From NCBI GenBank assembly GCA_943704415.1, contig CALSCO010001240.1:1-50410 (forward strand): a stretch of DNA of 50,410 bases. The letters run 5' to 3'. The notes beneath the pieces were generated by a model that was not told where the DNA came from, made no database searches, and saw only the letters and a program-made list of their open reading frames with translations. A program made the position numbers and the translations under genes. This stretch comes from Parvularia atlantis (Eukaryota). Shown here in pieces: positions 3,429 to 43,300 of the stretch; position 1 is the first letter of the stretch, and each line of letters opens with the position of its first letter.

Positions 3429-5030
3429 ATGGACGGCACGGGGCCGCCCGCCTTTAGCCGCAACGCGAGCCAGGTCTTCCCGCCCGGCGCAACGTTTGTG
3501 CGCTCGCCCGCCGACTGGACGCCGGCCGAATGGTGCGCGCCCTCTTAGACTCTCCCTTGGCGCCGCAACCACCACACACCGACCGCGGCGCAGGTTCGCC
3601 GTGTGCTTCGGCGCGGCGTGCTTCAGCGTGACGCTGCTGGCCATGGCCGTGCTCAACGCGCGCCGCGCCGTGCCGTACGTCAAGGTGCACGCACTGAAAC
3701 GCGCCGTCGCGCGCGCGTCTCATGTGCGTCTCGCCATGCAGATCAAGAGCGTCGCGTTCCTCAACGTCGTCGCCGTCTCCGCCACGCTCTTCTGGTGGTG
3801 CTACCGTCATGGTCCCTACCCGTGTGCACGATGCGCCTGACCGCGCGGGGCCGCGTGCAGGTTCGCGGTGCTGTGCAACGTGCGCATCGTCCCGCAGACG
3901 GGCGCGTTCCTCGGTGCGACTCCCAGCCTCCGCGCGCTCCGCTCACGGCCGCATACGTACTGCATTCCGCGCAGCCTGTGACTGGTCCAACATCTGGCTG
4001 TTCATGGTTGCGCCCACGACGCTGCTCGTCGCGCTGATCCAGCGGCTGCACCGCTTCGACCGCGTGCTCGTGCAGCGCAAGCCGGCCGTCGGGTGGCGCG
4101 CGCACGTCCTGCCGCTTTGCCTCTGGCTGCCAGTCCTCGTCTACTGCGCCGTCGGCTCGGGGCTGCGCGCGGACGGGCCGTACGCGTTCGACAACGGCGT
4201 CGTCATGTGCTACCTCTCATTCTGGCTCTCGGCCGTCTTTGTGCGTGCGCCGTCCGATCCGTCTGCCAGTGCGCCTGATCGTGGCCCGCGCAGACACTGC
4301 ACATGGTCGTGCTCTTCGTCGCGTACATCGTCGTCGCACTGCGCGTCGCTCGGGCGCGCACGCGCATCTTCTACGAGTTTTGGTGCCGTGCGCACGCTCA
4401 GCCTGCGTCGGTGGTCGCTGAGCCTCGTGCGCGCCTGCAGGCAGAGCGTGTGCGCGTTCGCGATGATGGTCGTCGTCACGGTTATCTACGCCTCACTCCT
4501 GTTCGGCAGCTATCAGTTTGTGGCGTGGGGCCGGGCCACGATCGTCATCCTCGTGCGTCCCGTTCAGTTACTCTCCTGGAGCTCGCTCTGACGCGGTGCT
4601 GGCAGTTGGCGGTCGCGATCAACCCCGTCATCTGGTCGTTTATCTGCACCCCGCTCTTCAGCCTCCTTTTCCGGCATGAGCGCGCGCTGGCCGAGTTCCA
4701 GGACGGTGCGTCTCGTCGTCCGCTGCTGCTGCCTCACGTCGCTCACGCTGGTTCGCAGCGATCACGAACAAGCGCATCCTCCTCAACGACGTCGACGCGC
4801 CCGGCTCGACCAGCTCGGTCGGCGGCGGCTCGGGCGACGGCACGGGGCGGCAGAGCGCCTCGTCACGCGCCCGCGGCTTTGTCGGACTCTTTGCGCTGCG
4901 CTCGATCGCGCGGCCGGCGCCCGTCACCAACTCGAGCAACGACGACAAGGCCGACGCCGCGGCCGAGAGCTGGGCCGAGCGGCGTCTTTCCCAGCTGACG
5001 CCCCGGGCGAGCAGTGACGCGCCCAACTGA
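3429..5030 (+). CDS. 7TM GPCR-like protein, copy 4
   Basis: MDGTGPPAFSRNASQVFPPGATFVRSPADWTPAEW|..NARRAVPYVK|IKSVAFLNV..|..CDWSNIWLF..RLHRFDRVLVQRK..|..RIFYEFW|RQSVCAF..|..RHERALAEFQD|AITNKRILLND..SDAPN*. Intron positions match copy 2. Confidence 0.85.
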
Positions 5031-26300: not shown

Positions 26301-28151
26301 TTTCCTGTCTTCGGTCCAGTTGCCCGTCGCGATCGCGTACGCGAAGCCGCCGGTGATGATGCTCGGCTGGATTGCCTTGCGCAGGTCAAACTCCTTCTTC
26401 TTGCTCAGCGACTGCAAGCCCGCATGGTAAGACAGCGCGAGTACATGCCAAGCAAGACCCGTGCCTTTTGCAGGTTCGTCTGGATGTTCTTGCGCAGGCG
26501 CTTGAACAGGCCGCGGAAGAGCGACGTGAGCAGCGGCCCAGCGAGGTCGCAGCGCTTCTTGCCGTAGTGGTCGCGATCGTCCTGTGCACAACAACCGTCA
26601 GCCCCCACTACGCACCCGCCCCACCGTGACCGGACGCACCGGTGTGCGCCGGCCGAGCGCAACGAGCATGAGGCGATGTACCATGTAGCCGAGGAAGTAG
26701 GCCTTCTTGGTGTCAAAGTCGGGCCCGATGCCGATGTGCGGTAGCATCTCGCGCTCGAGCACCTCGCGCGCGTGCTGCTTCTGGCGCTCCGAGTCGTGGC
26801 CCATCGTCTCGCCCGTGCGACCGATGAACTTGAGCGCCTCCTGCATGCGCCGGTGAGCACGGCCGCAGCACGCCGCACACAATGTCACGCACCGACTGCG
26901 TCGTGATGTCTTGCGCCTCACGGATGCACGGAATGAGTGCCTCGACCATCTCGTTGTCGTTCTGCCACGCAGCCACGTCAGACCACGCAGTTTCGCAAGC
27001 GGCACACGCGCACGATGTCGTAGCAGACGTAGCGCAGGATCTCGACGTCGGCGATGATGCCGAGCGCGCGGAAAACGATCGCGAGCGGGATCGTCTCGCG
27101 CATGAAGGGCAGCTGCACATGGATCGTCCGCCCGTGCTCGTCGCCACCCGCGATGCGGCTGAGCATGTACACGTACAGAGGCGAGGCCGGGCGCGGCGCC
27201 GTCTCCGCCTGCGAGCGGATTTCCGCCACAAACGCGTACTGCGCGCGGCGTCAACCGGCTGTGCACGCGTACGCGCACGCGCGCCGCAGCGGCGCCCGGC
27301 CGTGCCTTGTGCGGCATGTGCTTGGCAAAGATGTGCACAATGTTGTGCGCCATGCGCTCCTGCGCGATCAGCACCTTCTCGCTCCCGTTGATGATGAAGT
27401 AGCCGCCCTGACACCGCACGCACACACTCAGCTGCCTGGCCAGGTCCGACAGCCGCCGCAGCACGCACCTGGTCGAACGGGCACTCGCCCACGCTCGAGC
27501 TCTCCTGCAGCGTCATGTTGGACAGGTGGCACACGTTGGACCGGAGCATGATCGGGACCTCGCCGATGAACACGCGCTCGTGCACGCGCTCCTCGGTCAC
27601 GGCCTTGCGGCCGACACCGCGCGTCACCGTCTCCTTAATCTTCAGAAACAGGTTGGCGCTGTAGGTCATGCCGCGCAGACGCGCCTCGTTCTGTGCGCCG
27701 ACAGCTCAGGCAAAAAGAAGCACGAGAGGGGCGCAGGCCGCACCGGGTTGAGGATCTTCTGCTCGCTGCCGTTGGCCTCGGTGACCATCGGGCGGCTGAT
27801 AAACATCTGCATGAACTCGATCGCGTAGCGCCGCGGCACGTCGTCCTCCTGGCCGGTGTGCTGCTGCTCGACCTCGATCACCAGCTCCTTGTTGCGCTCG
27901 TGGTGCAGCACGCTCGACATGGTCGAGAGGATGAACCGGTCGAACGAGTCGAGCTGCTGCCGCACCAGCTTCTTCTCGTCGAAGAAGGCCGTCACGACCG
28001 GCCAGCACTCGTCCTGCGTGCGGATGTCGTCTTTTCGCCGCGGCCCCTCTCAGTTAACCACGACGCGCCGGCCGAAATGGCTGCGCGCACCGTCGCCGTA
28101 GTCCAGGTCCATGGCCCCGGCCCGGTCGTCGGCCATCTCGAGGCCCGGCAT
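23355..28151 (-). CDS. RPB2: RNA polymerase II second-largest subunit
   Basis: [124 protein letters not shown]; more than 20 short introns. Confidence 0.98.
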
Positions 28152-29384: not shown

Positions 29385-32300
29385 ATGGAGCAGATGGGCG
29401 GCGCGGACGGCCCGCCGGATGCGGCGGACGGCACGGATGGACCGCACGCGTCTGGTTGGCGCGCGCGCCGTTTGTTGTCTGGGGCGCAACGTCACGCTGG
29501 ACCGGGCTGCGCCGTCGCGCCGCGCACTGCCCGCGCGCCGTCGCCGTTTTCTTCCTCTGCTGCGCCCCCACTGCTGTGCTCGCCGTCTGCTGCCCGTGCG
29601 GCGCGCACGACGCCGGCCCTCACCCCCCTATTGAAGCCGTGCGCGGCCCATCTCAACCCCGCACGTGCCGCAATTGCGAACGCCGCCGTTCACGTCGCGC
29701 ACGTTGCCGCCGTGTGCGCAGCGCCGTGTTCCCCCCTCCGCTACCGCCACCCCGCACGTCGCGCCGATTCTGACCGTTACGCACAGGAGCCGCGGCGGGA
29801 CCCGGATGGCCCGCGTGTGAATGGCGCGTCGCGTGCTGCCGCCGCCTTCGACAAGTGCGCACGTGCTGACGCATCACGACGACGACACACAGCCCAACCC
29901 CCACCACCAGCCAACGGAGCGACGGCAGATGCAGCAGGGCGCGCAGCAGACGCAGGCAAGTCACGTGACGCGCTTGTTTTGTCCCGGGCCTTGGCGCTGA
30001 CCTCGCGCTCGCTCCTGCTCTGCGCTCTTCGCAGTACGTGATGCGCAGCCGTGAGTACGACCAGGACGATCCGATGGTGCGTGTCTCACCTTTGTCGCGG
30101 CGCTGTTTCCTGATGCGCGCTCATCAACAGGGACGGTCGAGCTCGGCGCCGCCGCACCTGCGCGACGACGACGATTTGCCCGCTGCCGTGCGCGGCCGCT
30201 GTACGTGTCGGTGCTGCTGTGGCTGACACGAGCGCGGCGACAGTACGCTGCGCCGCCGGGCCGCGGCGCGAGCCACTTCAACGGCACGGGCGCTCGCATG
30301 CCGACGCTCTCGAGCGGGCCGCAGCCCAGCAGCAGCAGCAGCCCGTGGGCGATCTGGAACAACGCGGCCTTCCCCGATGACGCCGCCAAGGCCGCCGCTG
30401 ACCCGGCCGCGAGCTGGGAGGAGAAGCGTGCGTTTGCGTGCTTGCGCCGCCTTCGACCGCTCATGGACGCGCTCTGTGCAGCCAACAAGCCCGACAGCCT
30501 CGAGCGCACGGTCTCGCTCGACGCCGAGCATGGCGGCTCGCGCCTGCTGGGCCGCTGGACCGACAACCGCCCGGCCGTGGTCATGCCGCCGCTGCGCAAG
30601 ATGACGGTGCGGTGCTGCCTTCTGTCCGCTGCTGGGCTGACCCGCTCGCTCGGGTAACAGGACGACTACGCGCACAACTCGTCACCGCTGTATGCGTTTG
30701 GGCTGCAGAACGACGCGCACAACGAGCCGTTCAGCGGGGCGCACCCGTCGGGCAGCCATGGCGCGACGACGATCGGCATAATGCGCACGCTGTCGTCTCC
30801 GGCGACCGCAACGCTCGCGCGCGACGACGGCGGTGCGGCCTCGTCGCTGCCCTGCCTGCCCTCACTGACTGCTCGCCGCTAGTGCCAAGCATCGCCGCGC
30901 CCGTGACGGGCTCGCGGTCGGCCTCGAGTGACCTGCACAAGGACAAGCCATTCTCGCTGTCTGCCTCGGTGCGAATGTTGCAGTGACACATGCGGCCACG
31001 GCTGTCTCACGCGCGGTACAGGCAAACGTGAGCACGGCGCCGTCGCGCGTCGCCACGCCGCCCGTGCACGACGTCGGCAAGTCGGGCGATGGCGGCTTGG
31101 GACGGCCGCGCGTGGTCGACGAGGACGACGCCGTCGCCGCTGCGCTGTCGGGCTTCAACACGCTATCGCTCAACGCGTCCGACGTGGTGCGCTGCCGGGC
31201 GACGTTCGGTGCGCCGGTCTGACGAGCGCTCGCGCAGGACGAATACACGTCGGGGATGCCCGGCAACGACTTTCTGCTGTCTGGACAGTACAACGACGCG
31301 CGGCTTTCGGCGTACCCGTCGCTCGGACCACAGTCGGGCTCGCAGACGCAGTCGCCACAGATGGCGCCGCAGCGCACGCCGCCGACCGGCCCGATGGACG
31401 AGTACGAGTACGAGGCGATGCCGCGGCGGCAGGCGTCGGCGGGCTACGCCGGCTACCCGGTCGGCCGCGGGCCGATGGCGCAGCAGCAGACCGGCTACGA
31501 CTACTATTCGGCACAGGCCGCGCTCTACGCCGCCGTCGGGCCGTACCCGGGCGCGTACGGCGTGCCGATGACGCACGAGCAGTACATGAACAAGCTGGTG
31601 GCGGCCGCGGCGATGGGCGTGTACCCGGGCGGCGGCGCAGGCGGGCGGCAGGGCTACTACCCGCCGATGTGGGACGCCAACGGCACGGATATGTCGCGCG
31701 GTGCGCTGCCGAGCGGCTGCTGAAGGGTCGTGCTGACTGCGCGGCGGCCAGGCATGCCGGGCTCGTACGGCGGCTACCCCATGGGCTACCCGACGCGCGA
31801 GTACATGTACAAGCAGCACATGGCGATGGCCGCGTACGGCATGGGCCCGCCGCCGATGCGCTCCGGCAGCGGGATGAAGCGTGGCGGTACGTGCTTTGTG
31901 CCTTGTGCTGTGCGCGGCTGACGCGTGCGGGTCGCACAGGCTACGGCTCATCGTCCAACTCGTCGCTCTCGCCCAACTCGGCGCCGTCGCCGAACGGGCC
32001 ACGGTCGATGGTGCTGGAGGAGTTCCGCGCCAACAAGAACAAGAAGTACGAGCTGCGGGTGCGTGTAACCTTGCGTATTATGTGTGCTCGTCGCTGACGC
32101 TGCGGCGGCCGCGCAGGACATCACGGGCTACGTTGTCGAGTTCAGCAGCGACCAGCACGGCTCGCGCTTCATCCAGCAGAAGCTCGAGGTGGCTCCGAAT
32201 GACGAGAAGCAGCTAGTGCGTGCTGGCCGCACCTGGAGTGCTTTGCTGATGGTGCATGCCACAGATCTTTGACGAGATCGCGCCGGCCGCGTTGAGCCTG

Positions 32301-33478
32301 ATGACGGACGTGTTTGGCAACTACGTGATCCAGAAGTTCCTCGAGCACGGTGCGTCGTTGCGGGGGAAGCGGGAACGGCGTGGGCTGACTGTATGTGTGT
32401 GCCCTTGCGCGCAGGCACCGATGCGCAGCGCGTGGCCCTGGCCGAGAAGATGCACTCGAACGTGCTGACGCTGGCGCTGCAGATGTACGGGTGCCGCGTC
32501 GTGCAGAAGGTGCGGTTCACCCGTGCTCGCGCCTAGCGAGCAGCGCTGACGCCGTGCGTGTGCAGGCGCTGGAGCAGATTGACCCCGAGCAGCAGGCTGC
32601 GCTGGTGCGCGAGCTCGACGGGAACGTGCTGCGGTGCATCAAGGACCAGAACGGCAACCACGTGATTCAAAAGTGCATCGAGCGCGTGCCACCGAACCGG
32701 ATTCAGTTCATCATCGACGCGTTCCACGGCCAAGTGTTCAGCCTCGCGACACACCCGTACGGCTGCCGCGTGATCCAGCGCATCTTTGAGCACTGCGACG
32801 AGGAGCAGACGGTGCGCGGCGCGTTTGTCGCGTGTGCGAGCTTGCTGATCGTTGTGCGCAGCGGCCACTGCTGGACGAGCTGCACAACTTTGTGCCGCAC
32901 CTGGCGCAGGATCAGTACGGCAACTACGTGATCCAGCACATCCTCGAGCACGGCAAGGTGCGCCGCGGCTTGCATTGGCGCACAGCGAGCGACTCACACA
33001 GCATGGGGCGCAGCCGCGGGACCGCGCGCAGATCATTGCCAAGGTCAAGGGCCAGATCCTGGTCATGTCGCAGCACAAGTTCGCGTCCAACGTGGTCGAG
33101 AAGTGTGTGCACAACGGGACCAAACGCGACCGCATGGTCATGATCGAGGAGGTCATCACGACGCGCGCCGACGGCGTTACGCCGCTGCTGGTGATGATGA
33201 AAGACCAGTTCGCCAACTACGTGATCCAGCGCATGGTCGACGTCGTCGACGGCGACCAGCGCGAGACGCTGATCCAGAAGATCCGCCCGCACCTGGCCAC
33301 GCTGCGCAAGTACACCTACGGCAAGCACATCATCTCCAAGGTGCGTGGCCCGTGCACGCGGGCGAGGGTGGCTGACATGACGTCGCCGCAGGTCGAGCGC
33401 TACATCAGCCAGGGCTACGGCAGCCACCACGGCAGCAACGGCCACCTGCACTCGAGCGAGACGCTGGCGACGGCCTGA
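29385..33478 (+). CDS. PUM: Pumilio-family (PUF) RNA-binding protein; start uncertain (alternative ATGs at 29929, 30041)
   Basis: [12 protein letters not shown] followed by eight PUF repeats with recognition motifs SRFIQ, NYVIQ, CRVVQ, NHVIQ, CRVIQ, NYVIQ, SNVVE, NYVIQ, ending [15 protein letters not shown]; long Y/G/P/M-rich N-terminus. Confidence 0.95.
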
Positions 33479-33731
33479 GCGCGCCGGGGGACATGTGCAC
33501 CTTTTTTTTTGTACCATCTGTTTCTTTCGCGCGACCGTGCGCCGTGCTGTAACTCTCTGTCCTTTTTCTCTGTGCTTCCTACACACTTCACGTTCCCGTG
33601 TCGCGTCTGTTGCCCATGGCTCATTGCACCCTTCCCCCGCTGAACTTGATCCCTCCCTCCGCGCCACCCGTTGTGTGATCGGATCGCGAGACTGCACGCT
33701 GTTCGGTCTGCCAGCACAAGCACAGCGGGAC

Positions 33732-35462
33732 TCACACCGACGCCATCGCCAGCACGGCCGCGACCGCGCCTGCCAGCGCCACGGCCAGCGCGCCCCACGG
33801 CATCGCCGACGCCGCGGCCCTGCTCGTGTTGCCGCCGCCGTTGCCGCCGTTGTTGTTGCCGCCGGACGACGTCGGCCGGTTGCTCGGGAAGCCGCTCGGC
33901 TGGCCCGACGGCACATCCGACGGCGCCAGCGACGGCGGGAAGGTCGGCACGGCCGTCGTGGGCGTGGGCGGCATGGTCGGAATGAGGTCGGGCGAGCTCG
34001 GCGGGTACGTCTGAAGGCGCGTCAGCCCGTGTGTGTCGATCAGTGCAAACGAGCAGGCGCACCTGGTTGCCCGCGTAGATAAACGCGACGGCGTTGCCCA
34101 GCGTCGTGTAGGCGTTGAGGTAGCCGTTGTATGTCGTCAGGCCCCACTGAATGTTGCTCTGGCGCACCGATCAGCACGCGCGCACGCAGACGCACGAGGG
34201 CGCACGCACCAGATACAGCTCGACCTGGACCTTTTGCGTCGCGGCGTAGTTGATAAAGTCCTGTGCGACGTGCCGTGAGCGACCGTGCGACCTCGCAAGG
34301 GAAGCAAGTCGACGGCACCTGCAGGTTCTGCGGCGCGGCGGTGACGAGCGTCGTCGCGTCGATCTGGATCGTCGTGACCTTGAGCCGCGCGAGGTTGAAG
34401 AGGCTGTTGGTGAACCGGAAGACGGCCTGGGTCGCATTCATGCCTGCGCGTCGGGCTCAGCACAAGTACGGCATGTCTTGTGCGCGCGCACCGTAGTACT
34501 GGATCAGCGACGAGTCCGAGATCCACACGTTGACGTTCTGCACGGCGTTGGCGAACGACACGCCCGGCGTGACCTTCATCTCGGCGAGCGAGTTGAGCTC
34601 GTGGATGACAAAGCCGCGGAACGAGGTCGCGTTGAGCTGGCGCGTCATAATCACGCTCGTGTTGACCAGCGTCCCGTGGAAGTACTGGTAGCCACGCTCG
34701 TAGAACGTGCCGGGCGGGTACGAGATGTTGGCGGCCTGCGTTCGCACCCGTCAGCAGTGCTGAGACTGTCACGGCGCGCGCGCACCTCAACGCGCAGGTT
34801 GCACGTGATGCCGTTCTGCACCGCGTAGCGGCACAGCTCGACGTTCTGGCTGCTGGCGATGAGCACGTCGGTCGCCTGCCGTTGCGGTCAGTGCCGGCGC
34901 GAGAGGACGGTCGGGCACGCACCTGGCTCACAGTGATCGACAGCAGCGCGCCTGCGAGCGCCTTCATCTCGTCGATGATCTGCCGGCGCCGCGCGTCAGC
35001 AGTCGTTGCGGTCGCAGGCAGGCGGTGCACGCACGTAGTAGCCGAACGGCCGCGTGTTGTTGTTGGCGTCGGTGTAGGGGTAGCGGAAGACGTCGCCAAA
35101 GTACGACGGCATGACAAAGTTGAGCGGGACCGGGTTGCCCCAGACGGACCACCACCTGGCGGGGCAGCCGCCGTCAGACGAGAGCACGAGGCACGGGGGG
35201 ACCGGGCGCACGCACTGCGGGACGTAGGAGTAGAACGTGCGGAGCTGGTCCATGGCCTCGGCCGTGTTGGTCAGGAAGAAGGGCGAGACGTAGGCGCGCG
35301 GGTCGAGCACGACGGCACTAGGGCGGATCACGTCGGCGGCATGGCTCGCGTCTGTCGGGCGCGGTGAGGACGTGCTGTGACCGCGCGCACACACGGCGAC
35401 GTACGTGCGAGCAGCAGGGCGCCGATCACGGCCGCGCAAACGAGGCGCTGGGTGTGGGCCAT
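33732..35462 (-). CDS. Secreted, probably GPI-anchored protein with a putative TIM-barrel-like domain and P/S/T stalk
   Basis: Signal-like start MAHTQRLVCAAVIGALLLA; about 10 exons that appear to splice in frame; PTxxPS-rich linker; hydrophobic C-terminus WGALAVALAGAVAAVLAMASV*. Confidence 0.75.
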
Positions 35463-35644
35463 GTTGACGGACGTGCGACGGCAGCAATAGAGGAGGGGAT
35501 GGCCGAGAACTGGTCCCGGCAGCCGCGCGCGCACGGGGCACTTATACGTCGCCGTCAGGCGGACGTGGCTTGTGGAGGCCCTGTCGACGCGCGCACGACG
35601 TGGCCCCGCACACGGGGCGCGCACCGGGTCCCGGATGGCCGAAA

Positions 35645-35662
35645 GGGGGGGGGGGGGGGGGG
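35645..35662 (+). repeat. G18 homopolymer between the divergent GPI-protein and IP3R-like genes
   Basis: 18 consecutive G directly before the first recognisable IP3R-like codons. Confidence 0.9.
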
Positions 35663-38600
35663 CAACAGAACTTTTTCAGCCTCGCGCAGCAGACCCGCGG
35701 CCTGGCCAACACGTACAAAATCGAGATCGAGTCGTGCATCGCGGTGCTCTTCCGCCTGTTTGAGACGTTCAAGATCGGTGCGCGCCACTGCCGCCGCCCA
35801 ACGACGTCGGGCAAACTGTGCCGCGGCGCACAGCCATCGGTTCGGGCCTGGACTCGGACGTGCCTGCGTTCCTCGAGAAGCGCCACCACACGAACCGGGT
35901 GCGTGAGAAGAGTCGTGTCCTGCCGCTGCGCGCGCTCAGACGCGGCCGTCGCGGCGCGCAGGCGATCAACACGTTCTTCGAGAACTGGCGCACGCGCAAG
36001 GGTGCGGCCGACAAGATGACGGCGTCGCGCAAGCTCTCGCAGTCGACGGTGCGCGCTGCGCCGTGCCTGGCCGCGAAGAACTGAGCACGGCGCGCAGATC
36101 GAGCTGCAAAACAGCATCGCGTCGCACCTCGGGCCGTTCTTTGAGCAGATGGAGCGCGACAACATGCCCATGATCGAGACCGGTGCGCCGCGGCGCTGCC
36201 CCTCGCCTGCCGACGCTGACAACGGAGGAGCCGCGCAGAGCGTGCGGTGCTCGTGGACGTCGTGCACCACTCGGCGCGCCTGTACTCGATGGACGCGACG
36301 GTCACGGACTCGCCGCTGCTGCTGCACCACAACTCGGGCGGCAAGGTGCGTGCTGGCGTAGTGCGCCGGCGGGCTTGACGGATGACGATGTGTGCGCGCA
36401 GGTCGGGGCGGCGCCGTCGTCGGGTGCGCTCATCGGCAAACTGGTCAAGCATGTGCGCTCGAAGCACTACGACAAGAAAGTGCGCACGACAACGCGAGTG
36501 CGCACGGCGGTTCTCACATGCACACGCGCAGTGGAAGCTCGAGCTGCTGTCGATCTTCTTGCGCATGATGACCGCGAGCACGCTCAGCGACGACGCTGCC
36601 ACGCTCAAGCAGTATGAGTTGGTGCGTGCGCGTACGCTGTGCATGGGGGGCGATGCGGACGGCCGCTGAACGACGGCGCGTGCATGCGCAGGACAAGTAC
36701 TTTGGGCGGTCGCGCATGTCGTGGGCGATCGACGTGCGCGCGATCCAGGACGAGCTGGACCAGTGCGGCGTGTCGGACCTGGTGATCGACCTCGCGTCCA
36801 GCAAGGACGACCGTGCGCGCTGCCTCGCGGCTCAGGCGGACGCTGACCCCGGCGCGCGTGCGCAGCGATGGTCTTTGTCGAGTCGATCCGCCTGGGCATC
36901 GCGCTGCTGGACGGCGGCAACACGACCGTGCAAAAGTCGTTCTTCGAGCGGTTCTCGTCCGGCACGGCGAGCGACTTTTTCAAGAACATCCAACGGCGGA
37001 TGCAGGAGAGCATGCAGGAGATGGAGTCGACCGTGGCCGTCAAGTCGTCCGACAAGCGCGGCACGGGTGCGCAGTGCGCCCTGCTGTGTGCGCCGCCGCT
37101 CATCGATCGCCGCGACGCCAGCGGGCTCGACCGAGTCGGCCAGCGTGCGCGCAACGCGCAACTCGCTCAAGCTGACGGACGACTTCAAGACGATGCAGCT
37201 GATCCTGCGCTTCCTGCAGCTGCTGTGTGAGAACCACAACGTCGACCTGCAGGCAAGCGCGCGTCCTCTGATCGCGGACGGTGCTGATGCACGCGCGCCG
37301 GCAGCTCACGCTACTCAAGAACAACCTTGTGCAGCAGACGCTCGCGTACCTGGACTACGTCTGCGCGAGCGCAATCGCTGGCGTGAGCGTGACGACGCTG
37401 CTCAAGTGCGCATGGCATTCGGGGCCGCGTGCGTGTGCTGACGCCCGGCGCAGCTCCGAGGCGCGCGTCAACCTCATTATCCAGTGCCTGACGACGCTGA
37501 CCGAGTACTGCCAGGGCCCGTGTCGCGAGAACCAGGTGCGCGACGAGCCTCACCGCCGCGGAGACCGCTGCTTACGACGACGTCCGGTGCAGGACTGCGT
37601 GGCGACGCATGACTGCCACGCGTTTGAGCTGTCCAACAACATCATCAACGTCGACCTGGGCATGCTGTCGACGCCGCTGCCAAAGTCGGCGGACGGGCTT
37701 TCGCGGCTCGTGTCGTTCCTGCAGGTCAAGGTGCGTGCGTGGCCGACGCCGAGGTCAGCCGGCACGCTGACCGCTGCGCCAGAACAACGTGTGCAAGTTC
37801 CTGCTCAGCGTGATCGAGAGCCGCGCGCCTCACGAGATCCCGGACAAGCTCGTGTACAACATCGACCTGATTGCACTGGTGCGCACGCGGGCATGCGCGC
37901 ACGGCGCGCGCACGGCTTAGCTTGTCGCGCTGCCGTACGCAGAGCAAGACGATCAAGCTGGTGCACCGCCTGCACTCGAGCGAAGTCTTCGTGGTCGAGG
38001 CCAACCACGACACGGTGGAGCAGGTCGCCTACGAGCTCGGCCAGAACCTGTTCCTGCTCGCGACGCAGCTCAGCAAGACCTCGGCCGACCGGCACGACAG
38101 CATTCACGCCGACTCGGACGTGTCGCTCAAGTACTACGCGTCGCTGACGGGGTGCGCCGAGTGCCGTCCGCGCGCGCGTGGGTCTCACGAGGAGCGCGCA
38201 GGACGATCGAGCTCGTGCGCAAGGGCCGGCTCGAGCAAATCAGCTTCCCGATCCCGTACGTGTGCCAGTTCCTGACGGACGAGTCCAAGACAGACATCAT
38301 CGAGAACTCGAAGCGCGACGAGCAGGGTGCGTGCGTGTGCGCGCGCCCGTGAGCACCGGGCTGCCTGCTGAGCGTGACACGCGCGCGCGCGCCCTCAGGG
38401 TCCAAGATCCCGCACTTTTTTGCGCGCATGGGCGAGCTGTACAGCGAGATGAAGTGGCAGAATCGGCTGCGCAAGTGGAAGGAGGTTTGTGGCGCGCAGG
38501 GCTCTGGCCCCCGCCTGACCCACCGCGCGGCGGGGCGCAGCTGTCGTGGCTGGCGCGGCACATCTCGACGTGGAAGGTGATCGCATTCTACGCCTCGGTC

Positions 38601-40275
38601 GTCATCAATTTGCTCATCATCTTCACCTTCCCGCTCACGAGCGACGGCTGGGGCGCGATCGCGACCGTGGTCCAGTGGACGCTGGCCCTGGGTGGTGCGC
38701 CTGACCGCTGCTGTGCACTGTGACCGCCGTGCCGACACCCGTGCGCGTGCGTGCGCAGGCCTGTTCCAGATCGCCATGGCCATCGTCATCTTGTGCAGCT
38801 ACGTCGGTGCGCGTCAGCACACAGGCCTGCCGCTGGATGCGTGAACACTAACCGTGCGCACGCGGCAGCCAACTACGGGCTGCTGTTGCTCAAGCAGGGC
38901 AGCCTGTGGAAGGACCTGATGCTCGACTACCACCTGGGCTACCTGTTTGTGGCCGTGCTGGCGCTGCTGCACCACCCGCTCTGGCACTCACTGCTCTTGC
39001 TCGACATTGGTGCGTCGACTGCTGCTCCCGGGGGGATGCTCGCGGGCTGAGTGCGGCGCGTGTAGTCGTGCGCGACGAGACGCTGCAGAACGTGATCAGG
39101 AGTGTGACGCGCAACGGCCGGGCCATCCTCGTCACGGGCGCGTTTGGCGCGATCATCATCTACCTGTTCTCGGTCGTGGGCTTCCTGTTCCTGCAGAACG
39201 ACTTTGTGCTCGACGTGGAGGACATGCAGGAGCGCGCGTGCGATTCGCTGCTCCTGTGCATGACGACGGCCCTCAACCATGTGCGCATCTGCCTGCGCGC
39301 TCGGAACGCGCTGCTGACGTGCGGCGGCGGGCGCGCAGGGCCTGCGCCAAGGCGGCGGCATCGGCGACATCCTGCTGCAGCGCAGCGTGCGCGACCCGCA
39401 CTTTGGTGCGCCCTGCGCGCTCTGCAGCGTTGAGGTGGTGATGACGCTACGCGCCCGCGCCAGCCACGCGCGTCGTGTACGACCTCACGTTCTTCCTGGT
39501 GGTGATCACGATCGTGCTGCACCTGATCGACGGCATCATCATCGACACGTTCGCCGACCTGCGCGCGGAAAAGTGCGTGGGCCAGCGGTACCCTTCGTGC
39601 GCCCAGTGGCTGACGCGCGCGCACGCGCGCTGCCGCCAGACAAGAGATGGAAGAGAACCGCAAGAACACGTGCTACATCTGCGGCCTGCACCGGTCCGCG
39701 TTCGAGCACAAGGCGGTGCGTCGCTGGGCGCGGAGGCCAGGGGCGCGGGGCGCACTCACGCACGCGCAAGGTGACCTTTGACGAGCATGTGACGAGCGAG
39801 CACAACCTTTGGAACTACCTCTACTTCATGGTGCACCTGTGGCAGAAGGACCCAACCGAGTACACGGGGCCCGAGTCGTTCGTGGCGCACATGGCCAGGG
39901 CGCAGTCGCTTGACTGGTTCCCGCGGCTGCGCGTGCGTCGCCGCCCGCGAGTGGCTGGACGCTGTGCTCACGCGTTCGTGCCTGCGCGCAGACGATGTCG
40001 ATCAGCTCGCAGAACGAGGACTCGGAGCAGGTCGACGCGCAGCGCCTGCGGCAACAGGTGGCCGACACGAACGCGATGGTGCGCAGCACGCATGCACTCC
40101 CCCAGCCGCTTCGGCCGACATACGGCGCGCGTCGCAGGTGGTCGACCTTCGCCGCCAGGTCGTCGCGATGCGCATGGAGGCGATGGAGCAGCGGCGGCAG
40201 GCGCTCATCACGACGATGCGCACGCGCCCGTCGTTCTCGACCATGGACCTCTTCGGGCGCACGGCGACAACGTAG
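35663..40275 (+). CDS. ITPR: Inositol 1,4,5-trisphosphate receptor-like Ca2+ channel, C-terminal part only (RIH-associated, ion transport, zinc finger, coiled coil); start unresolved
   Basis: [131 protein letters not shown]. No MIR/IP3-binding or suppressor domain exons were found upstream. Confidence 0.93.
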
Positions 40276-40343
40276 CAGGGGCGTTGTACGGCCTCTTTGC
40301 ACATAGGCCCTAAGCAACCAAAAGAATCCTGCGCTGCTGCGGG

Positions 40344-43300
40344 TCACTGGGACTCTGGTGGCACAGGGATCTGCTTGGGCGGCTGCGGCGCCTCGGCCGC
40401 CTGCCGGTTCGCGCACTCGGCGTCAGGCGCGCGCACGCCAAACCGTGCCGGCGCGACACGCACCGCCTCCTGCGGCGCAAACATGACCGAGAACGCCGGC
40501 GTAGCACCGGCCGCCGTCGACGCGGCCACGACCGGCTCCATCGGTGCGGGCAGGTCGCCGCTGGTGAGCGTGTCCAGGTTTAGCATGCCGCGGCGGACGG
40601 CGCGGGCCGCGCGCACCGCGAGGAGGTCGTCGGCGCCGTCAAGGTGAGCAGCGGCAGGTTGAACGTCTCCTCCGCGCTGCCGTCGGTCTGCAGCGGCCTG
40701 TCAGCGTCTGCGCGCTCGCGGCAAGCGCTGACGACCTGCTGCTGCCGCGCGTACGCGTACGACATGCGTGCTTGGTACATCTGGTCCTGCTTGGTAACGC
40801 GCGTTGAGCCCACGCCATGGCGGCGTTCTGCGCCCGCACGCCACCGTCAAGGCCGGCGCAATCGGCTGCCTGCTTGGGTATGCGGTGTGGGTTGATGCCG
40901 CCTGCGCGCAAACGATCAGCGCGCTGCAGCTGTGCAGGCGGGCGAGCACACCGTCTGCGGGCCGTAGATGGAGCCGTACGCGGGCGCGGGCGCGACTGCT
41001 CGACGGTGCTGCGTCAGGGTCGATGCCTCCAGTGCGGCCGCGCGCGCGACGCACCGCTCAGACCATAGCTGTAGGGGTAGGCGTACGCAACGTTGCTGAC
41101 ACCCGCCGGCTGGTACGGCTGCGAGCTTATGCTCGACGCCTGCGTGATCGGCGTCCACCCGAACGTGTAGCTGCTCGTGCCTGGAGGAAGGGGCATTACG
41201 TCCGACGGCGCACGCGCGCGGCAGGCAGCACGCACTGGGCGAGGCCGTGTGCTGCACGTAGCGGCCTGATGAGTCGATCGAGTAGGCCACGGTCGAGCTG
41301 GCCGGGTAGACCGTATTCTGCGGCTGGTGGTGTGATGCGTACGCCGACTGCTGCTGCAGCGGGTCCGCCAGCGCGCTGGTCGAGCTCGATGCGGACGCCT
41401 GCACCCGCAACGTCGCCGGCTGCCACTGCCGCACGCTTCCGGCCGCGTGCGGCGACGCTTGCGCGCTGGATGGGCCGGTGGCCGGTTCTTCAAGCGCGCT
41501 GCAGAGCGGGCGTGCCGTCAGGAAGGGGGCGAGCGGCGCGCGTGCAACCGCACCGCTTCAGGGGTCGCGGCTGCTGCCTGTTAGACTGCGTCTTCTCCGG
41601 CGTCGTCGTGTGCATGCGCCGCATATGGACCTGCAGGCCGACCTGCGGTGCGGCACGCCAGCGTGAGCCTTACTGGCCCGCGGCTGCCTGTGCGCACGCG
41701 CGCACCAGCGTGCCAAACGGCAGGCCTGTCTTGCAGCCGGCGACCGGACACTTGTACTCGATGTTGCGGTTTGTGCGACTGGGTTTGTGCTGGGCCGGCG
41801 CGAGCGAGTCGTGGGTGGTGGCGGCTGCGGCATCGACTGCCTCGACGGCTTCGACGCGCTCGTGCCTGCGTCTGCGCAAGCGTGTGTGGATGCGTGCATG
41901 TCAGCCATAGCGGTCACGAGCGTGTGTGTGTGCACGCACACAGACGACTCGGCCGGGTCGGCGGTCTGGAACATGCGCAGCTGGCGCGGGTCGAGCTCGC
42001 ACAGGAAACGCCCCAGGGCGAAGCGCAGGGCCGAGATCGCCGCGTCCGGGCTGACGGGCAGGCGCGCTAGGTCGGCAGCCACGACGTCAGGCAGACCAGC
42101 GGCATCGGCGGCCTGCTCTGCCGTGTGCCCGTTGATGGACGTCGCCGGCTCGTGCACGCGCTCGATGTCCGCCGCACCTGGCCCCTCTGTTGATACCGAC
42201 GGCGCCTCTGTCTTCGCGGGCTGGGTTGTTGCGGCATCCATCGGCACTGACGCATTGGCGCTGGTTGCGTCGGCCTCCATACCGTCCACCTTTGCCGGTA
42301 CGCTGTCCCAGAGCAGCGGCGCCAGCGCCAGTGTCTGCTGGCCGTGGCTGCTGCTGGCCGTGGGGCTCGCGGCGGTGGTGAAGTCGATAGCAGCGGACGA
42401 GGCATCGCCCGTGCGTGCAGCCTGCCCGTTGGCCTGGTTGGCCGCTGAGCTTGCAGCGGGCTCGTGCGCCGCCGACGCGCTGTGCGACGGCGGGCACGTT
42501 GCACGGATGAGCATGAACACGATCCTCACGAGGTCGGGCTTGGCGAGGTGATCGATCGCCCTGAGCAGCGGGCCGACAATGGGCAGGTGGTGCCGGTGCG
42601 CGAGGCCGGTGCATCCAGACCAGGCCAGCACGCGCCTGACGACGTTGGCGATGTCGCACGAGCACTCGGGCTTGTTGGCGTCCGCGCAGCATCGGCAGTC
42701 TGGGTCGTGCGCGCTCGCAGTGTACAGCAGGCCGTGCAGCAGGCGCAAGTTGCGGTCCTCTACCCGCGCACTCTGCTCTACGTAGGCCGCAAAGTTCGCC
42801 ATGTCGCCCAGGTGCCGCGTGACGTACTCGCGCCGCTGCGTCGCCGCAGGCCGTGCCCGAGTGGCGTCCGAGGCCGCGGCACCGCTCGCGGACAACGTCA
42901 CGCCCATGCTCGACCCGTCGCGCCGCATGCTCCATGCGTAGCCGTCGCCAGCCCAGGCCGCATGGTCGACGGGCAGGAGCGGCACATACATCTGCCGCGC
43001 CGAGCTGCCGCTGCTGCCCGCCATGTGGTCGTATGCCGACGCGTACGGCAGCCGCGCGTCGGTGGGCTTGGCGGGGTAGAAGAGGTGCTGCATCAGCGGC
43101 TGCGTCGGCTGCACCGGCTGCGGCTTGTGCGTCGCCGGCGAGCTGCGGACGCGCGGCGCCGCACGGGCCAGTGCCGGTGCGGGCACCGGTGTCGATGTGT
43201 TGCGCTCACGCGGGCGCCTCCCGCTCGAGCGCGTCGCGTGCTGCCGGATAGAGGCGGCGGCGGCGGCCGGCGCTGCCGCGTCCTGCTCGCCAGGCTGCTG

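What the first reader, a model, noticed from the sequence alone, without database searches (positions are those of the whole stretch)
39511..39564. IP3R gate helix reads [10 protein letters not shown]: hydrophobic gate Phe replaced by Asp, Asn by His
Seen: codons cac (39520) and gac (39529) give [18 protein letters not shown]. Established knowledge: IP3Rs have [18 protein letters not shown], in which Phe (F2586 in rat IP3R1) and the Ile four residues on form the gate; RyRs have Gln at the Phe position. TTC>GAC needs two changes, so a read error is unlikely. Inference: in a tetramer this makes a ring of Asp with His about one turn above, which could give a leaky, pH-gated or metal-gated pore. 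Combined with the missing IP3-binding head, it points to an undescribed class of Ca2+ channel.
Basis: partly seen in the sequence, partly recalled or inferred. Interest (0 to 1): 0.85.

Follow-up and report, generated by a model that had tools for sequence, protein, structure and literature searches.

The report
IP3 receptor with acidic pore gate
An IP3-receptor calcium channel gene carries aspartate and histidine at two pore positions where its relatives have phenylalanine and asparagine, and so does its full-length counterpart in a second organism; this likely turns one of the channel's two greasy seals into an ion-binding ring, while the "missing head" is likely an assembly error.

Summary
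The residues are real in the assembly: CAC (His, 39520) and GAC (Asp, 39529) align without gaps to N2583 and F2586 of rat IP3R1. A third pore-lining site, I2579, is Thr; the lower gate Ile2590 is kept. A syntenic orthologue in a second organism (L004) has the same Thr/His/Asp, although synonymous sites are near saturation (pS 0.73, pN 0.033). None of 139 other homologues retrieved has His or Asp there.

The "headless" half of the finding fails. Homology starts at an 18-G run where contigs of two runs leave the window, and L004 is a full-length receptor keeping 8 of 9 listed IP3 contacts.

[quoted passage not shown] The mechanism is untested, the gate codons were not checked in reads, and the survey is small and animal-heavy. 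New variant of a known kind.

The parts
39529..39531 (+). Asp codon at the position of the upper gate residue F2586 (rat IP3R1) / Q4933 (RyR1)
   Evidence: same residue in L004; F 131, L 8, D 0 of 139 other homologues
39520..39522 (+). His codon at the position of N2583, the cavity residue next to the luminal Ca-VL ion in rat IP3R1
   Evidence: N in 139 of 139 other homologues
39508..39510 (+). Thr codon at the position of pore-lining I2579 (IP3R2 I2530)
   Evidence: same in L004; Thr in 2 of 139 others
39541..39543 (+). Ile codon at the lower hydrophobic gate position I2590 (RyR1 I4937), unchanged
39464..39572 (+). Exon 23 of the model: the pore-lining TM6 helix
   Evidence: gene model; PDB match E 9.6e-9
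39351..39368 (+). Selectivity filter GGGIGD, intact, in exon 22 (39339-39405)
39640..39932 (+). Exons 24-25: linker domain with the Cys2/His2 zinc-finger residues and the T2654 equivalent of the activating Ca2+ site
35666..40275 (+). 3' part of an IP3 receptor gene: 27 modelled exons, 26 introns of 48-72 nt, one open frame of about 1,036 codons, no start codon; corresponds to roughly rat residue 1500 onward
   Evidence: hand-built model without internal stops, GC3 0.93; 36% identity over 945 columns to a fish IP3R; start position estimated
35645..35662 (.). Run of 18 G: likely assembly misjoin that removes the 5' part of the gene from the window
   Evidence: only such run; X1 contig of the left flank leaves at 35655 with 5,693 bases still to go; X2 contig matches 35666-35744 and has 1,926 other bases before it

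Best explanation
This is the 3' part of a likely full-length IP3 receptor whose pore helix has Thr, His and Asp at three pore-lining positions, and which likely still opens with IP3 and Ca2+ and likely closes at the retained Ile ring alone, as ryanodine receptors do. Shown: the residues, their register against solved structures, their conservation in a syntenic full-length orthologue, an intact filter, zinc finger and activating Ca2+ site, and intact IP3 contacts in the orthologue. Inferred: in the tetramer the four Asp and four His line the cavity just luminal of the Ile gate; His (i-3) pairs with Asp and partly offsets the charge of four close carboxylates; the ring works as a cation-binding site that replaces the Asn-lined Ca-VL site and would change divalent occupancy, conductance or block, with luminal pH or Zn2+ as likely modulators rather than primary gates.
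For: Register. The IP3R2 structure paper lists I2530, N2534, F2537, I2541 and R2548 as pore-lining (PMC13503717 passages); these map to T, H, D, I, R here, all within a 60-degree arc on an ideal helix. N2583 sits next to a cavity Ca2+ ion (PMC9663519 passages). RyR1 has polar Q4933 as an ion-favourable site and I4937 as the barrier (PMC12290639 passages, simulation study). Conservation: 129 codons of TM5 to TM6, pS 0.73, pN 0.033; 94-95% identity in TM5 and filter/TM6 against 74% in TM4 and 64% in the linker. Orthology: colinear downstream genes; window and L004 group at 100/100. Full length. IP3 contacts T267, R269, R504, K508, R511, Y567, R568, K569 kept in L004, S274 is Glu (alignments against the list). 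Activating Ca2+ site motifs kept in the window.
Against: No functional or structural test was run. In IP3R1 both rings seal the closed pore, and it is F2586 that moves on activation while I2590 stays at about 5 A, so the Ile-only gate is an analogy to RyR. A charged substitution (F2586K) strongly reduced release, so a charged ring may impair the channel. L001 has Asp with Asn, so His is not always needed with Asp. The IP3 pocket was seen in the orthologue, not in this organism, and its first roughly 170 residues lie outside the fetched locus. A second, canonical IP3R in the same organism could not be looked for.
Confidence: 0.5

Rival explanations
1. The His4/Asp4 ring is a primary luminal sensor: protons or a transition metal such as Zn2+ bind there and open or block the channel, suiting it to an acidic or metal-storing organelle.
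For: His and Asp are fixed together on one helix face. In RyR2, histidines engineered at the E4872 site of the same inner helix turned luminal Ca2+ gating into luminal Ni2+ gating (PMC5583710 passage, a review). A basic residue at the luminal mouth (R in 93 of 129 others) is Leu in both proteins. The stem branch is long (0.63) and the tips short (0.10, 0.22), as after a change of function.
Against: E4872 corresponds to IP3R1 D2594/D2595 (PMC10105685 passages), two turns further cytosolic and unchanged here, so the RyR2 result is only an analogy. IP3 and Ca2+ sites are intact, which argues that they remain the main gate. Nothing is known of the protein's location.
Confidence: 0.2
2. The changes alter what passes, not how it is gated: the acidic ring makes the pore more divalent-selective or blocked by Ca2+/Mg2+ in the cavity.
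For: All three changes raise polarity on the luminal half of the cavity; acidic inner-helix residues of RyR1 bind divalents strongly in simulation.
Against: The filter and D2551, D2591, D2595 equivalents are unchanged. Overlaps with the best explanation and cannot be told from it by sequence.
Confidence: 0.12
3. His and Asp are a compensated pair that became locked in, and the channel behaves like any IP3R.
For: An i/i+3 His-Asp pair can be near neutral (established chemistry, not from a call). The position tolerates Leu in 8 of 139 homologues and Gln in RyR.
Against: Phe to Asp needs two base changes through a non-canonical residue; Asn is invariant in 139 of 139; three changes fall on one pore-facing stripe.
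Confidence: 0.08
4. The channel is a constitutive leak because one hydrophobic seal is lost.
For: F2586 is one of two seals, and the tighter one in one apo map (4.5 vs 6 A; PMC6274648 passage). Four carboxylates would repel and wet the pore.
Against: Ile2590 is kept; RyR1 closes with a polar residue here; F2586K, I2590N and I2590T left basal Ca2+ unchanged; the IP3 pocket is conserved in L004.
Confidence: 0.06
5. A headless, IP3-independent new class of Ca2+ channel.
For: The window holds no N-terminal exons, and an ATG at 35635 would be in frame if the G run were one base shorter.
Against: An X2 contig identical over 35666-35744 carries 1,926 other bases upstream, the 30 shown reading in frame without a stop; an X1 contig of the left flank leaves the window at the G run. 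The syntenic orthologue with the same gate is full length.
Confidence: 0.02
6. The codons are an assembly error or the gene is a relic.
Against: Identical residues in a second organism; 1,037-codon frame without a stop; run X2 holds 0.43 of the words against 0.49 expected for spliced mRNA and 0.057 for the neighbour gene alone; strong purifying selection.
Confidence: 0.02

Closest known systems
Animal IP3 receptors (IP3R1-3; PDB 3jav, 7lhe, 12ai, 6dqj)
   Same: Colinear domain order in the orthologue, GGG(I/V)GD filter, I2590, D2591, D2595, R2597, zinc finger, activating Ca2+ site, 8 of 9 IP3 contacts.
   Different: I2579T, N2583H, F2586D on the pore-facing stripe; R2554 equivalent is Leu; S274 is Glu in L004.
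Ryanodine receptors (RyR1 Q4933/I4937; RyR2 E4872 luminal sensor)
   Same: A polar residue one turn luminal of a single Ile gate; precedent for an inner-helix cation site that His can re-tune.
   Different: Asp not Gln, plus His; sequence is much closer to IP3R (E 1e-8 against 1e-4); IP3 pocket present; SPRY and RyR repeats were not searched for, but L004 is colinear with insect IP3Rs.
Engineered IP3R1 gate mutants (F2586K, I2590N/T, D2594K; disease allele N2543I at the N2583 position)
   Same: Same helix and positions.
   Different: Those are loss or gain of function mutants in a mammalian background; no F-to-D or N-to-H mutant was found in the searched library.
Truncated IP3R/RyR-like release channels of Paramecium (recalled, not confirmed by any search; one search returned only PMC3194816)
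   Same: Would have been the precedent for a headless form.
   Different: The gene here is not headless.

Membership tests
IP3 receptor | C-terminal pore domain with GGGXGD filter | tested here: met
   (Ion_trans on single exons, one of three above the cut-off)
IP3 receptor | N-terminal suppressor, MIR and RIH domains; about 2,700 residues | tested here: met
   In orthologue L004: RIH 60.8 bits (above cut-off), MIR on 4 exons (1 above cut-off), suppressor domain weak (E 0.013); colinear with insect IP3Rs from about residue 190 to the end. In the window's organism only indirectly: 1,926 bases upstream in an X2 contig.
IP3 receptor | RIH-associated domain before the membrane region | tested here: met
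   By alignment of the model to P0051, which carries PF08454; not scanned with Pfam directly
IP3 receptor | IP3-coordinating residues | tested here: met
   8 of the 9 listed in PMC9663519 are kept in L004, S274 is Glu; not visible in the window
IP3 receptor | Activating Ca2+ site (E1978, E2042, Q2045, T2654) and C2H2 zinc finger | tested here: met
   T2654 and both His by numbered alignment; the Glu/Gln and Cys motifs by identity to a fish IP3R and the residue list; R1982 equivalent is Val
IP3 receptor | Double hydrophobic seal F2586 + I2590 (a conserved trait, not part of the family definition: 8 of 139 homologues have Leu) | tested here: not met
   Asp at 2586, Ile kept at 2590; this is the variant
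IP3 receptor | Tetrameric channel releasing Ca2+ in response to IP3 | not testable with these tools
   Needs expression and recording
Ryanodine receptor | Gln at the 4933 position | tested here: not met
   Asp
Ryanodine receptor | About 5,000 residues with SPRY and RyR repeats | tested here: inconclusive
   Not scanned on all exons (13 exons, none matched them); about 10.6 kb of L004 with introns is colinear with IP3Rs, leaving no room
Headless IP3R/RyR-like channel | Gene starts within the armadillo region, no ligand-binding head | tested here: not met

The most novel reading that the evidence does not exclude
A lineage of non-animal eukaryotes has rebuilt the IP3 receptor's upper gate into a His4/Asp4 ring that senses luminal protons or Zn2+, giving a coincidence detector for cytosolic IP3 and organelle pH or metal load, and a natural proof that Ile2590 alone is the family's true gate.
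Probability: 0.2. Interest if true: 0.85.

Novelty: new variant of a known kind. Interest (0 to 1): 0.6.

Why it matters
Structural papers leave open how IP3Rs conduct when the Ile ring barely widens, and put the gating motion at F2586 (PMC9663519, PMC6274648, PMC13503717 passages). A natural, strongly conserved, full-length receptor with Asp at that position and His at the cavity Ca2+ site is a ready experiment on which ring is the gate and on whether a luminal ion site in the pore controls gating, a disputed point for IP3Rs (PMC10105685 passage). The same Asn position is mutated in Gillespie syndrome. The case also shows how a poly-G misjoin can fake a new domain architecture.

Tried and rejected
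No whole genome is held, so neither the 5' part of the gene nor a canonical paralogue could be searched for. No listed holder is on record as RNA; X2 is treated as RNA because its contig skips two introns of the neighbour gene. Lack of X1 cover over most of the IP3R body is no evidence, as records are filtered. The HMMER search of 1.84 billion representatives could not be run, so the survey rests on three word-based searches limited to proteins of 31-2,000 residues (15 of 81, 117 of 126 and 9 of 9 candidates passed), mostly animal-like, with no full-length IP3R. The Asp pattern found 4 loci in metagenome contigs and 0 in viral contigs; it demands Asp, so it gives no denominator. One apparent Asp among 142 rows was a misalignment of P0108 (it reads N/F). 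The first tree used a wrong frame for the last L004 exon and is discarded; others (28 rows; 18 rows, chosen from 144 proteins for length and spread, long branches P0099, P0118, P0122, P0095 left out) replace it. Exon 8 gave no PDB match. The ESM Atlas gave only generic channel clusters. Earlier findings: nothing. Three papers on Capsaspora IP3Rs and IP3R pore mutagenesis were not held and may contain relevant alignments or mutants. No structure or complex was predicted: the pore domain is split over exons and no coordinates would be returned. The reading 'ATG at 35635 with a miscounted G run' was considered and rejected. The lineage was not named; the tree only places it outside animals, near an ichthyosporean sequence and unnamed environmental ones.

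Full report
Observation. The window reads cac at 39520 and gac at 39529, within an exon (39464-39572) that translates to a TM6 helix ending [18 protein letters not shown]. The 35-residue exon aligns without gaps to rat IP3R1 2566-2599 and IP3R2 2517-2550. His therefore stands at N2583, Asp at F2586, and the Ile four residues on at I2590. The same search maps the exon on RyR1 4913-4944, which puts Asp on 4933 and Ile on 4937. Phe to Asp needs two base changes, Asn to His one. The IP3R2 structure paper lists I2530, N2534, F2537, I2541 and R2548 as pore-lining (PMC13503717, passages seen); here these are T, H, D, I and R.

The gene. I built a 27-exon model by hand from 35663 to 40275. It has 26 introns of 48-72 nt (25 GT-AG, 1 GC-AG) and gives 1,037 codons without an internal stop and without a start codon. 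It is 36% identical over 945 columns to a fish IP3R. The filter (GGGIGD), the zinc-finger Cys and His, T2654 and the Glu/Gln motifs of the activating Ca2+ site are present (residue list from PMC9663519, passages seen). Run X2 holds 0.43 of the sampled words of 35000-40400; a spliced transcript would give 0.49 and the neighbour gene alone 0.057. This fits expression but does not prove it.

The head is not missing. Homology begins right after a run of 18 G (35645-35662), the only G or C run of 9 or more in the window. Two runs were laid on 35000-37150. An X1 contig of 16,080 bases matches 35000-35655 exactly and then has 5,693 bases left that do not follow the window. An X2 contig of 2,005 bases matches 35666-35744 exactly at its end and has 1,926 other bases before it; the 30 loose letters shown read in the IP3R frame without a stop (translated by hand). 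Another X1 contig also begins with the G run, so such runs occur at more than one locus. The simplest reading is a misjoin of two loci at a shared G run. No N-terminal IP3R exon is found elsewhere in the window. About the first 1,500 residues are absent (estimated).

A second organism has the same gate. A search with the gate exon found P0001, with His and Asp; its cluster has two members seen on 8 and 10 contigs. A scan of metagenome contigs for Asp at this position gave 4 loci. L002-L004 are one organism (99.8-100% identical) with 50-54% GC against about 68% in the window. L004 is the orthologue: its downstream genes are colinear with window 41.9-49.1 kb and the two proteins group at 100/100. 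L004 is full length as far as the locus reaches. It is colinear with insect IP3Rs from about residue 190 onward, with suppressor (weak), MIR and RIH matches on single exons. It keeps T267, R269, R504, K508, R511, Y567, R568 and K569; S274 is Glu. So the His/Asp gate goes with an intact IP3 pocket. Over 129 codons of TM5 to TM6 the two genes differ at 0.73 of synonymous and 0.033 of non-synonymous sites. TM5 and filter/TM6 are 94-95% identical, TM4 74%, the linker 64%.

How rare. Among 139 other homologue entries, position 2583 is Asn in 139, position 2586 is Phe in 131 and Leu in 8, and position 2579 is Thr in 2 (for the first 133 entries). The nearest relatives in the tree, P0046, P0052 (91/91) and P0081, are canonical, so the changes arose on the stem of this lineage, which is long (0.63) against short tips (0.10, 0.22). 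The group lies outside the animal clade, beside an ichthyosporean sequence. The survey is small, word-based, capped at 2,000 residues and animal-heavy, so 'rare' is shown only within it. L001, a 1-kb fragment of 22% GC and about 31% identity to the window protein, has Asp with Asn: a probable separate origin of Asp, and a sign that His is not always required.

Mechanism. Shown: residues, register, conservation, intact ligand sites. From the literature: F2586 and I2590 form two seals; on activation F2586 rotates while I2590 stays near 5 A; N2583 lies next to a cavity Ca2+ ion; F2586K cut release but left basal Ca2+ unchanged (PMC9663519; PMC6274648; PMC8149723; passages seen). RyR1 closes at I4937 with polar Q4933 as an ion-favourable site (PMC12290639, simulation study, passages seen). 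Inferred: the channel closes at the Ile ring alone, and four Asp with four His form a cation site on its luminal side, His partly offsetting the charge. I put 0.5 on this with IP3 and Ca2+ still the main gate. A primary pH or metal sensor gets 0.2; histidines engineered in the RyR2 inner helix gave Ni2+ gating (PMC5583710, review passage), but at the site matching IP3R1 D2594/D2595 (PMC10105685, passages), which is unchanged here. Altered selectivity alone gets 0.12, a neutral compensated pair 0.08, leak 0.06, headless class 0.02, error 0.02.

Comparison and novelty. It meets the IP3R features listed in PMC3194816 (passages seen), partly through its orthologue, and departs in one conserved trait, the Phe seal. 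It works like an IP3R with an RyR-style single Ile gate; it is not an RyR. A full-text search for the motif and for F2586D, F2585D, F2592D or N2583H found 0 papers; searches listed none describing such a variant (listings and abstract starts only, apart from the papers named). The library lacks most subscription papers, figures and alignments are not searchable, supplements were not searched, and three relevant papers were not held.

Verdict. Observation of the gate confirmed and strengthened; headless claim refuted; new variant of a known kind; interest 0.6.

Noticed in passing
window 35645-35665: The window is likely chimeric at this G run; anything read across it, including gene order left and right of it, is unreliable. 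The bases just before 35669 end in CAG and could be the 3' end of an IP3R intron.
   Followed up: yes
L001:771-1050 (minus strand): A divergent IP3R/RyR-like fragment from a 22% GC source with Asp at the F2586 position but Asn kept; probable independent origin.
   Followed up: partly
P0077, P0080, P0084, P0086, P0096, P0100, P0102, P0104: Eight homologues with Leu at the F2586 position; the three placed in the last tree form one group (100/99).
   Followed up: partly
P0046, P0052, P0142-P0144, P0081: Unnamed environmental IP3Rs with the canonical gate that are the nearest relatives; they could be a sister lineage or the canonical paralogue.
   Followed up: partly
L004:415-537: The IP3 pocket has Glu at the S274 position, a P4-phosphate contact in rat IP3R1; it might lower IP3 affinity.
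   Followed up: no
window 39369-39405: Luminal loop after the filter: a conserved Arg is Leu and a Leu is His in both organisms, further changes near the luminal mouth.
   Followed up: partly
window 37253-37304: The one GC-AG intron among 26 in the model.
   Followed up: no
window 39406-39463: An intron between filter and TM6 exons that the orthologue L004 lacks.
   Followed up: no
window about 24000-28110 (-), 30030-33479 (+), 33700-35461 (-): By eye: RNA polymerase II second subunit, a Pumilio-repeat protein, and a probable secreted or surface protein with a Pro/Thr-rich tail; two introns of the last are skipped in an X2 contig. Names are from recall, not from a family search.
   Followed up: no
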